Assembly (NCBI GenBank): GCA_964016885.1
Contig: OZ024740.1
Span: 213,032,001 to 213,096,000, forward strand
Reading direction: 5' to 3'
From: Eledone cirrhosa
Taxonomy: Eukaryota
Length of the DNA stretch: 64,000 nucleotides
The notes under the pieces were generated by a model that saw only the letters and a list, made by a program, of their open reading frames with translations, made no database searches and had not been told where the DNA came from. This document shows, one piece after another, positions 16,524 to 18,011 of this stretch (its first letter is position 1; each line of letters starts with the position of its first letter). The position numbers and the translations under genes were made by a program.

Positions 16524-16574
<51 letters not shown>

Positions 16575-16575
<1 letters not shown>

Positions 16576-16689
16576 GGAAAAAGTATGACCCCAACGGCAG
16601 AGCTCAAGCCGTTTCGACGGCTATTTCTGGACTAAATTAGAATTTTTAGTCTGGTAAATAAATACCCGAACTTTTCAAGGGTACTTCCT
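16575..16689 (-). ncRNA. Hammerhead with U3-A8 core (family C), GUU site
   Basis: ccc-TTGAAAA-gttcgg..ccgtc-GAAA-cggc..gccGTT-ggg. Confidence 0.7.
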
Positions 16690-17792
16690 TATATGGGAAG
16701 ATTGTAGTTGTCAAGAGGATTGGTCAAAATTTGTTGTAAACACAAATAAGTCTATCATGGCAGTGGCTGGGAATGGGGGTGGTAGAACAATGAGGGAGTG
16801 GGTGGAGCCGGTCAAGCGTTGAAAGTGAAATCTATACGGCAAATTATAAGGATTGTGAATGAAAGTAGGCCAGAGGAGGTAGGCAAAAAAAGGTTTCTGG
16901 AGAAAATAAAGGAGGGACGTTATAGAATGGGTAAATCAACTGAGATTAGGAGACAATAAAAAAATAATAATAATAATAATAAAAAATAAGAGAAAGATAT
17001 ATAAAAATATAAAATTGGATAGTGAGAAGTGATAAAAAAACAAAATCTATAGAGTCTAAAACAGCTGCTATGGTTAGTTCGTGTTGCTTTTTCGGCCAAT
17101 GCTATAGAGTAGAGTTGAGAATAGAAAATACTAAATAAGAATTATTGAAATTGTAGAATTGGATAGTAAAAAGTAATACAAAATCTGTTTTCTTCTTCCC
17201 TTCGTCTCCTGCTATCACTTCCTTCCACCACCAATCTTCTTACTCGTTCTTTTTTTTCCCTTTCGCCTACCCCGAGGCAGCCCATCCCAGTAACTTAAAG
17301 GTAGCATTGGCGGAAAACGCTATACTAACTAATCAGAGCAGCTGTGTTAGACCCCAGAGATTTTGTATTACTTTTTACTATCCAATTCTACAATTTCAAT
17401 AATTCTTATTTAGTATTTTCTATTCTCAACTCTACTCTATAGCATTGGCGGAAAAAGCAACACCAACTAAACATAGCAGCTGTTTTAGACTCTATAGTTT
17501 TTGTTTTTTATCACTTCTCACTATCCAATTTTATATTTTTATATATCTTTCTCTTATTTTATTATCATTTTTTTTATTGTCTCCTAATCTCAATTGATTT
17601 ACCCATTATATAACGTCCCTAGAATTTGCCGTATAGATTTCACTTTCAACGCTTGACCGGCTCCACCCACTTCCTCATTGTTTTACAGGCAATTTCAGCC
17701 AACCCCACCGGCCACCCACAGCCATGATAGACTTATTTTTGTTTACAACAAATTTTGACCAATCCTCTTGACAACTACAATCTTCCCATATA

Positions 17793-17907
17793 AGGAAGTG
17801 CCCTTGAAAAGTTCGGCTATTTATTTACCAGACTAAAATTTCTAATTTAGTCCAGAAATAACCGTCGAAACGGCTTGAGCTCCGCCGTCGGGGTCATACT
17901 TTTTCCT
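17793..17907 (+). ncRNA. Hammerhead with U3-A8 core (family C), GUC site
   Basis: ccc-TTGAAAA(17804-10)-extended stem II-GAAA(17867-70)-cggc..gccGTC-ggg; stem I extends through a bulge (aggaa/ttcct). Confidence 0.75.
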
Positions 17908-18011
17908 ATTACCCACTCTACTACCCTAAGTATTGAGTACTCTGGTGCGTTATGGTCCATCTGGTTCCTTACCACAACTCTTTCGTTATATATATGTGTA
18001 TATATGTATAA

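What the first reader, a model, noticed from the sequence alone, without database searches (positions are those of the whole stretch)
16571..17985. Family C: second, unrelated U3-A8 hammerhead with a long stem II and stable stem III
Four full copies (16575-, 17793+, 27767-, 28443+) have core TTGAAAA, a stem II of cggctattt/aaatagccg capped by gactaaa/tttagtc, a 5-bp stem III acggc/gccgt, and a bulged stem I. I see no sequence similarity to family B outside the core, so the U3-A8 swap may have arisen twice. Canonical CUGANGA descriptors would miss both families.
Basis: partly seen in the sequence, partly recalled or inferred. Interest (0 to 1): 0.75.

Follow-up and report, generated by a model that had tools for sequence, protein, structure and literature searches.

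The report
Penelope hammerhead with toggling core pair
These four motifs are hammerhead-shaped, likely self-cutting RNA ends of broken copies of a very abundant Penelope-type jumping gene; their U-A core pair is an already published variant, but in this family that pair changed repeatedly between four forms while the rest of the core stayed fixed, and most copies begin at a likely transcription start inside the motif, which would make a long-open question about how these elements copy their ends testable.

Summary
U3-A8 in Penelope hammerheads is published (PMC4209133). Family B is a separate 591-nt tandem unit with no similarity outside the core. Across subfamilies the 3-8 pair is not fixed: C-G/U.G, U-A, U.G, U-A (window copies), C.A, U-A, while 11 of 12 other core positions stay invariant and helix II covaries. 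So the swap is cheap and recurrent, not a rare double origin. Most copies start 41 nt before the predicted cut, at an initiator-like A inside helix II, often after an extra G: a likely transcription start, with a motif-ten-like element over the catalytic GAA. Cleavage is untested and no RNA run was listed. The scan noted this family and these two features before on other DNA of this genome. Verdict: new variant of a known kind, interest 0.45.

The parts
17790..17912 (+). Hammerhead copy, right arm of insertion 1: U3-A9 17804-17810, G10.1 17811, C11.1 17866, G12-A14 17867-17869, helix III 17870-17888, predicted cut 17889/17890; one broken pair in helix II
16572..16692 (-). Hammerhead copy, left arm of insertion 1: core 16678-16672; damaged (GUU at the cut, broken helix II pair; predicted to fold into the GAA-hiding hairpin, P 0.98)
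27764..27885 (-). Hammerhead copy, left arm of insertion 2: core 27873-27867, all features kept
28440..28560 (+). Hammerhead copy, right arm of insertion 2: core 28454-28460, predicted cut 28541/28542, all features kept
16571..17186 (-). Insertion 1, inverted 5'-truncated arm (3' UTR piece + hammerhead, ends about 20 nt after the cut in a microsatellite)
   Evidence: match to full-length copy L088
17188..17989 (+). Insertion 1, longer arm (3' UTR + hammerhead + 100-nt tail, then (TA)n); no ORF left
17890..17989 (+). 100-nt tail after the cut; in full-length copies it runs on into the 5' UTR and the ATG
17847..17852 (+). Initiator-like TTAGTC in the 3' strand of helix II; A+1 = 17849, 41 nt before the cut; where most genomic copies begin (inferred transcription start)
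   Evidence: Inr consensus from PMC5580651
17866..17870 (+). CGAAA at +18 to +22 from A+1: 4 of 5 match to the motif-ten CGANC, the same letters as C11.1-G12-A13-A14-A15.1
   Evidence: sequence; consensus and spacing from PMC5580651
27685..28390 (-). Insertion 2, longer arm with full tail, next to (TA)n
28400..28561 (+). Insertion 2, short inverted arm ending about 20 nt after the cut in (TA)n
29205..29403 (.). Tiny palindromic insertion of a younger subfamily: two 3' half-hammerheads joined at 29345/29346; the minus arm begins at A+1 after an extra G

Best explanation
The motif is the hammerhead-shaped RNA in the terminal repeat (pseudo-LTR) of a Hydra-clade Penelope-like retrotransposon, likely a weak self-cleaving ribozyme that would trim the element's RNA, and the window holds only truncated, inverted, non-coding ends of that element. 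Shown: element structure (5' repeat with hammerhead and tail, ORF with RT and C-terminal GIY-YIG, 3' UTR, hammerhead, tail; about 3.0-3.1 kb from cut to cut), (TA)n targets, conservation of the core, covariation of helix II, four subfamily-level states of the 3-8 pair, and a sharp 5' boundary of copies at A+1. Inferred (about 0.7): the RNA cleaves after GUC, slowly, as monomer or through its palindromic helix III as dimer; position 3 is held as a pyrimidine and 8 as a purine, so that the pair is always Watson-Crick or a wobble (U.G, C.A). Inferred (about 0.6): transcription starts at A+1 inside helix II, so the 5' end of the RNA carries only the 3' half of the ribozyme and the whole one is at the 3' end. 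Inferred (about 0.3): the 41 nt from start to cut are then present at both RNA ends; the RT primes in the tail on (TA)n DNA, copies to the cap, usually stops (tiny palindromic copies) and sometimes jumps to the 3' end by that homology, which rebuilds the pseudo-LTR.
For: ORF upstream of the motif with RWR, DKT, YRDDG, CxCX5C linker, GIY-YIG, CxxC and CxH, matching the Hydra description and, by eye, Hydra-1_Obim. Hammerhead + tail directly before the ATG in 6 of 20 loci; cut-to-cut 2,997 and 3,097 nt in two copies. Subfamily majorities: 11 of 12 core columns invariant versus 61 of 121 others, Fisher p 0.006; 5 of 5 core columns upstream of A+1 versus 26 of 65. N7 takes all four letters while U4, A6, A8, A9 are fixed in 100 of 100 and G5 in 99 of 100 listed matches. 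Helix II: 3 pairs with changes on both sides; 88% of cells paired versus 28-50% when slid. 3-8 states by subfamily with falling divergence: C5 0.11 (G8 in 9 of 11), C4 0.10 (U-A 16 of 16), C6 0.084 (U.G 11 of 11), C1 0.033 (U-A 18 of 18, window copies), C3a/C3 0.03 (C.A 9 of 9), C2 0.005 (U-A); the tree without the core needs 9 changes versus 25 for shuffled labels. Of 90 tail-anchored copies 8 hold the whole hammerhead, 51 begin within -7..+6 of A+1 (20 at 0/+1), 5 at the cut; 51 of 67 inverted arms end at +20 after the cut and none at it. G before A+1 in 22 of 47 non-templated joints, versus 17% at -2/-3. 14 of 29 ORF-linked 5' repeats run seamlessly upstream through the whole hammerhead. 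Internal Inr/DPE promoter in the Drosophila Penelope repeat (PMC2377424).
Against: No cleavage or RNA data. The family made about a third of its whole-hammerhead copies with a C3.A8 mismatch (36 of 100), so fast cleavage cannot be essential. A competing hairpin that buries G12-A14 is predicted to dominate in the youngest subfamilies (P 0.58-0.85 for C2, C2b, C3). Helices I and III show no compensatory change and distal helix II is not conserved (72% paired); only 5 pairs change on both sides, which shuffles reach in 217 of 500. Conservation of the 3' half could serve the promoter alone. Only 4 of 29 ORF-linked copies begin at A+1. Some -1 G letters can come from microhomology with the other arm, palindromic joints are partly counted from both arms, and R2 RT adds non-templated G or T in vitro (PMC13000458). 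Order of subfamilies rests on divergence; the tree nests C5 inside C4 with modest support and its bootstrap had not settled. G8 copies were sought on purpose (74 in the genome) and some are point mutants of young subfamilies. Pfam and PDB do not recognise the ORF.
Confidence: 0.72

Rival explanations
1. The motif is a decayed or nearly silent ribozyme kept mainly as the element's internal promoter and priming signal; long copies come from uncut read-through RNA and tiny ones from short transcripts.
For: Amplification with C3.A8; GAA-hiding hairpin favoured in young subfamilies; no copy ends at the cut; the 3' half fits Inr and motif-ten spacing.
Against: U4, G5, A6, A9, G10.1 and the 5' strand of helix I lie upstream of A+1 and are invariant over about 0.9 changes per site of trunk; helix II covaries; U3-A8 was regained in the youngest subfamily; 5 of 90 copies begin at the cut.
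Confidence: 0.15
2. An efficient ribozyme cuts tandem transcripts into cut-to-cut monomers that circularise; the RT primes in the tail, rolls round the circle, and the 5' boundary in helix II is an RT stall on structure, not a transcription start (the model of PMC4209133).
For: Explains priming downstream of the cut and seamless partial tandems; the boundary lies in the longest helix.
Against: The boundary sits at the same letter in subfamilies whose distal helix II differs, beyond the 9-bp stem rather than at its entry; excess G at -1; mismatch phase argues against a need for efficient cutting.
Confidence: 0.1
3. One reading: a free-standing, fast, tertiary-stabilised monomeric hammerhead family with an independent, stable U3-A8 swap.
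For: 5-bp helix III and P(helix II, III) of 0.8-0.99 for intact C1 copies; no similarity to family B.
Against: It is part of a retroelement; the pair is unstable over subfamilies; the helix I internal loop changes freely between subfamilies with no partner change.
Confidence: 0.03

Closest known systems
Hydra clade of C-terminal EN+ Penelope-like elements and their hammerheads (Craig et al. 2021, PMC8557442; e.g. Hydra-1_Obim)
   Same: Protein motifs, (TA)n target, inverted 5'-truncated partner, one-sided tail, type I hammerhead about 100 nt from the 3' end, palindromic helix III.
   Different: All 26 Hydra rows of File S2 have C3-G8, helix II of 3-7 bp with a short loop and helix III of 3-4 bp with a 1-3-nt loop. 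Here mostly U3-A8, helix II arm of about 58 nt, helix III of 5 bp with a 9-nt palindromic loop; tail about 80 nt rather than 30-40.
U3-A8 minimal hammerheads of Cercyon Penelope-like elements, Schistosoma mansoni (Cervera and De la Pena 2014, PMC4209133)
   Same: U3-A8 core in pseudo-LTRs, G10.1-C11.1, long helix II, short helix I, many solo and opposite-strand copies.
   Different: Those have no helix III and are obligate dimers with low activity; here helix III can form in a monomer. U.G and C.A subfamilies and a start site inside the motif are not in the parts read; its supplements were not seen.
Natural C3-G8 to U3-A8 covariants (Perreault et al. 2011, PMC3088659)
   Same: The same compensatory pair, stated to be active in vitro.
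   Different: Scattered examples; no lineage that walks through wobble and mismatch states.
Non-LTR retrozymes (bioRxiv 10.64898/2026.07.22.740005; PMC7229834 seen as listing only)
   Same: Type I hammerhead repeats derived from Penelope-like elements; family B (591-nt tandem unit) fits this class.
   Different: Family C is the autonomous, ORF-bearing kind and is not tandem.
Drosophila virilis Penelope internal promoter (Schostak et al. 2008, PMC2377424)
   Same: TATA-less Inr/DPE promoter inside the pseudo-LTR.
   Different: There the start lies upstream of an intron that ends at helix I (PMC4209133); here the inferred start lies inside helix II and splits the ribozyme.

Membership tests
Hammerhead ribozyme, type I | Three-helix junction with U4 G5 A6 N7, A9, G12 A13 A14, A15.1-U16.1, H17 | tested here: met
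Hammerhead ribozyme, type I | Watson-Crick 3-8 pair | tested here: inconclusive
   U-A in the four window copies and C1, C2, C4; C-G in old copies; U.G and C.A in whole subfamilies
Hammerhead ribozyme, type I | Helices supported by covariation | tested here: met
   helix II 3 double changes; helices I and III conserved without covariation
Hammerhead ribozyme, type I | Helix I / helix II tertiary contact | tested here: inconclusive
   no conserved or covarying bulge letters seen; absence cannot be shown by sequence
Hammerhead ribozyme, type I | Site-specific self-cleavage | not testable with these tools
   indirect only: 5 of 90 copies begin at the predicted cut
Hammerhead ribozyme, type I | Match to an Rfam hammerhead model | tested here: not met
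   none in the window at gathering score, none for two C3-G8 and one other old copy at E up to 5; the long helix II is outside the models
Penelope-like element | Single ORF with RT and GIY-YIG | tested here: met
   translated from relatives; Pfam blank, so by motif and by eye against published Hydra proteins
Penelope-like element | Pseudo-LTR partial tandem, inverted 5'-truncated partner, one-sided tail | tested here: met
Hydra clade | RWK-like and DKT motifs, CxCX5C linker, no CCHH, CxxC and CxH around E and N, C-terminal EN | tested here: met
   RWR, DKT, CNCPDRSTC, CNLC, CKH (definition)
Hydra clade | (TA)n insertion | tested here: met
Hydra clade | Placement in an RT phylogeny with Hydra references | not tested
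   reference proteins were read in the supplement but are not loadable sequences
Non-LTR retrozyme | Short non-coding tandem unit with a hammerhead per unit | tested here: not met
   family C is ORF-linked and non-tandem; family B meets it
Inr/MTE core promoter | Capped RNA 5' ends at A+1 and promoter activity | not testable with these tools
   motif and spacing fit, copy starts peak there

The most novel reading that the evidence does not exclude
The hammerhead is dual-coded: its 3' half, including the catalytic GAA, is also the Pol II core promoter, and start site and cut site together define a 41-nt repeat at both RNA ends that the Penelope RT uses for a strong-stop-like template jump. This would be a concrete mechanism for pseudo-LTR regeneration, with tens of thousands of failed jumps fossilised as tiny palindromes, and it would explain why the 3-8 pair may drift through wobbles while the GAA cannot.
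Probability: 0.3. Interest if true: 0.75.

Novelty: new variant of a known kind. Interest (0 to 1): 0.45.

Why it matters
As filed (a U3-A8 hammerhead) it is a further example of a published variant. What adds value: one lineage supplies a natural series of six ribozymes that differ at the 3-8 pair in a nearly constant frame, with known amplification success, which allows a direct test of whether Penelope-like elements need cleavage, a point left open in PMC8557442. And the copy boundaries suggest a mechanism for pseudo-LTR regeneration, for which PMC2377424 states there is no obvious mechanism. It also shows that CUGANGA descriptors and Rfam miss thousands of such motifs in one animal genome.

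Tried and rejected
RNA evidence: no RNA holder listed; contigs of four runs of unrecorded kind repeated the subfamily variants and gave no start or end information; their depth was not used. DNA search for family B returned nothing because its words are too common; a pattern search worked. Pfam and PDB sequence searches do not recognise the ORF; the Atlas gave no answer. First constrained folds had an off-by-one error for non-window copies and are replaced. First tree missed subfamily C3 through a too-narrow filter; replaced (56 of 126 harvested copies, hand-picked by subfamily). Common origin of B and C from the shared G-(U)-CGGC/GCC stem base: not above shuffles. A pseudoknot between the helix I loop (CUGG in C2) and CCAG in helix II: not conserved in other subfamilies. 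Naiad/Nematis/Neptune assignment: rejected (C-terminal EN, no CCHH, CxCX5C). Kinetic data on 3-8 mismatches (Przybilski and Hammann 2007) could not be read; that mismatches slow cleavage, that U.G and C.A are similar wobbles, and that RTs can copy a cap as G are recalled, not from a call. In-print searches for a start site inside a Penelope hammerhead or for C.A/U.G lineages: searches found none; subscription papers and the supplements of PMC4209133 and the bioRxiv paper were not seen.

Full report
Observation. The four motifs are present where stated. A type I descriptor allowing C3-G8 or U3-A8 gives 10 hits in the window: these four, three of family B and three C3-G8 hits. Reading for 17793+: helix I, U3 U4 G5 A6 A7 A8 A9 (17804-17810), G10.1-C11.1 with a 2x1 loop, a 9-bp helix, an internal loop and a 7-bp hairpin, G12 A13 A14, a 5-bp helix III with a 9-nt loop, GUC, cut at 17889/17890. 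Two of four copies are damaged (17793+ and 16575- each break one helix II pair; 16575- has GUU). Self-comparison shows that they are the arms of two inverted insertions flanked by (TA)n, with a third, 200-bp palindrome of half copies at 29205-29403. Rfam finds only two tRNAs.

What carries it. In the 3.0-Gb genome the 20-nt tail word has 35,502 exact matches (control 0) and the whole 5' half 3,767. Upstream of the motif in longer copies lie about 770 nt of 3' UTR and an ORF ending in a CxCX5C linker, GIY-YIG, CxxC and CxH, preceded by an RT with RWR, DKT and YRDDG. These are the Hydra-clade marks of PMC8557442 (section 11 read) and the protein follows Hydra-1_Obim motif by motif by eye; Pfam and PDB are blank. 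In 6 of 20 loci picked by the N-terminal part, hammerhead and tail stand directly before the ATG; two copies measure 2,997 and 3,097 nt from cut to cut. So this is a pseudo-LTR hammerhead. The window arms match only the 3' UTR, hammerhead and tail.

Is the swap new? No. PMC4209133 (parts 1-2 of 4 read) reports about 1,300 U3-A8 hits in Schistosoma Penelope-like elements; PMC3088659 (section 8) reports natural U3-A8. It is new for the Hydra clade as tabulated: 26 of 26 Hydra rows in File S2 have C3-G8 and short helices.

Family B. A 591-595-nt tandem unit with 5,950 exact core matches, retrozyme-like. With cores masked, its similarity to five C subfamilies is within shuffles (97-434 of 500 as high). 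It has no ORF, so its origin cannot be placed; an independent swap is likely but unproven.

Selection on the motif. With seven core letters left free, the first 100 of 3,767 matches read Y-U-G-A-N-A-A: U3 63, C3 36, other 1; N7 all four letters; U4, A6, A8, A9 100 of 100, G5 99 of 100. An older branch found through a loose end has a helix II with three compensatory pairs; among the first 100 of its 330 matches 14 have G8, 6 of them C3-G8. A targeted search gave 74 G8 copies, including a U3.G8 subfamily. For 85 copies sorted by hand into ten subfamilies, majorities keep 11 of 12 core columns (the exception is C11.1 to U in the oldest, still pairing with G) against 61 of 121 others (p 0.006), and 5 of 5 in the 5' core against 26 of 65. 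By divergence from their majority the order is C5 (0.11; G8 in 9 of 11, with C or U at 3), C4 (0.10; U-A), C6 (0.084; U.G), C1 (0.033; U-A, the window copies), C3a/C3 (0.035, 0.024; C.A), C2 (0.005-0.012; U-A). A tree of 56 of 126 harvested copies, core removed, separates C4/C5, C6 and C1-C3-C2 with full support and needs 9 label changes (shuffled 25); it nests C5 in C4 with modest support and is unrooted, so the first step is uncertain. Reading: the pair toggled about five times by transitions, always pyrimidine-purine. Against a strong structural claim: helices I and III do not covary, distal helix II is not conserved, and the count of doubly changed pairs is not above shuffles.

Folding. 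Intact C1 copies form helices II and III with P 0.8-0.99; the open-core fold lies 0.6-3 kcal/mol from the ensemble. Because CGGC and GCCG each occur twice, a hairpin that hides G12-A14 competes and is favoured in C2, C2b and C3 (0.58-0.85) and in the damaged 16575- copy (0.98). Helix III with its GAGCUC centre can pair between two copies (-27 to -31 kcal/mol), as in other Penelope hammerheads. These are predictions only.

Where copies begin and end. Of 90 copies picked by the tail word alone, 8 hold the whole hammerhead; 51 begin within -7..+6 of the A of T(T/C)AGT(C/T), 41 nt before the cut (20 at 0/+1); 5 begin at the cut; the rest are scattered. Of 67 inverted partner arms 51 end at +20 after the cut and none at the cut. 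The hexamer is one letter from the Drosophila Inr TCA+1GTY; CGAAA at +18..+22 matches 4 of 5 of the motif-ten CGANC and is the catalytic C11.1-GAA-A15.1; CGG at +27..+29 is perfect in C4 and C5 but not in C1 or C2 (PMC5580651 passages). Of 92 arms that begin near A+1, 45 have the templated letters before it; of the other 47, 22 have G, 11 T, 10 C, 4 A (G 17% at -2/-3; 22 of 36 non-T, p 0.0006), as copying a cap would give (recalled). Caveats: microhomology, joints counted from both arms, and non-templated G or T by R2 RT in vitro (PMC13000458, one passage). Of 30 copies where the tail runs on into the 5' UTR, 29 aligned: 14 continue upstream through the whole hammerhead, 4 begin at A+1, 11 further down.

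Mechanism. Shown: element, targets, conservation, toggling pair, boundaries. Inferred: slow cleavage after GUC (0.7); start at A+1 (0.6); a jump across the 41-nt start-to-cut repeat that rebuilds the pseudo-LTR (0.3). The circle model of PMC4209133 explains priming in the tail but not the boundary at A+1; a promoter-only model does not explain the fixed 5' core. No RNA data could be had.

Verdict. A real pseudo-LTR hammerhead of a Hydra-clade element; a new variant of a known kind. The scan had described this family, its mismatch phase and its internal start on other DNA of this genome; those notes are leads, not support. Added here from my own calls: the six-step series including the U.G and C-G subfamilies, the core-invariance test, the -1 G excess and the motif-ten overlap. 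Papers seen: PMC4209133 parts 1-2 of 4; PMC8557442 passages, section 11, supplement part 2 and passages; PMC3088659 passages and section 8; bioRxiv 10.64898/2026.07.22.740005 part 1 of 5; PMC2377424, PMC5580651, PMC2920678, PMC13000458 passages; PMC7229834 listing only.

Noticed in passing
window 29737-31104: Family B: inverted plus tandem copies of a 591-nt retrozyme-like unit with U3-A8 core and a perfect 10-nt palindromic helix III; 5,950 exact core matches genome-wide.
   Followed up: partly
window 20719-23302 +: Another Hydra-type element (about 33% protein identity to family C) with a C3-G8 hammerhead near 23135-23250 whose helix II arm is about 80 nt, ending in (TA)n.
   Followed up: partly
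window 45625-47720 -: Third, degraded Hydra-type ORF with weak GIY-YIG hit; no hammerhead seen downstream.
   Followed up: partly
window 5078-5499, 51621-51903, 31324-31397: Further C3-G8 hammerhead-like hits, the first two in one inverted repeat family with a very long helix III.
   Followed up: no
window 52544-53491 -: 315-aa stop-free frame with a Pfam HtrL_YibB match (E 2.9e-15, above cut-off), a family described as bacterial, in an animal-type repeat-rich region.
   Followed up: no
window 32325-33031: Two tRNA-like sequences (32415-32485 -, 32871-32941 +) inside near-identical inverted and direct repeats; possibly a tRNA-derived repeat.
   Followed up: no
L002 and L005 (G000:C1 about 212.49 Mb): A near-identical duplicate of insertion 1 and its flanks about 560 kb from the window: segmental duplication or assembly duplicate.
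   Followed up: no
L091:785-889, L092:2558-2662, L292, L294: Several copies have lost helix III by deletion between the two GCCGTC repeats.
   Followed up: no
window 15962-16603 - and 61142-62002 -: LINE-type RT fragments (Pfam RVT_1); insertion 1 sits in a microsatellite at the edge of the first.
   Followed up: no
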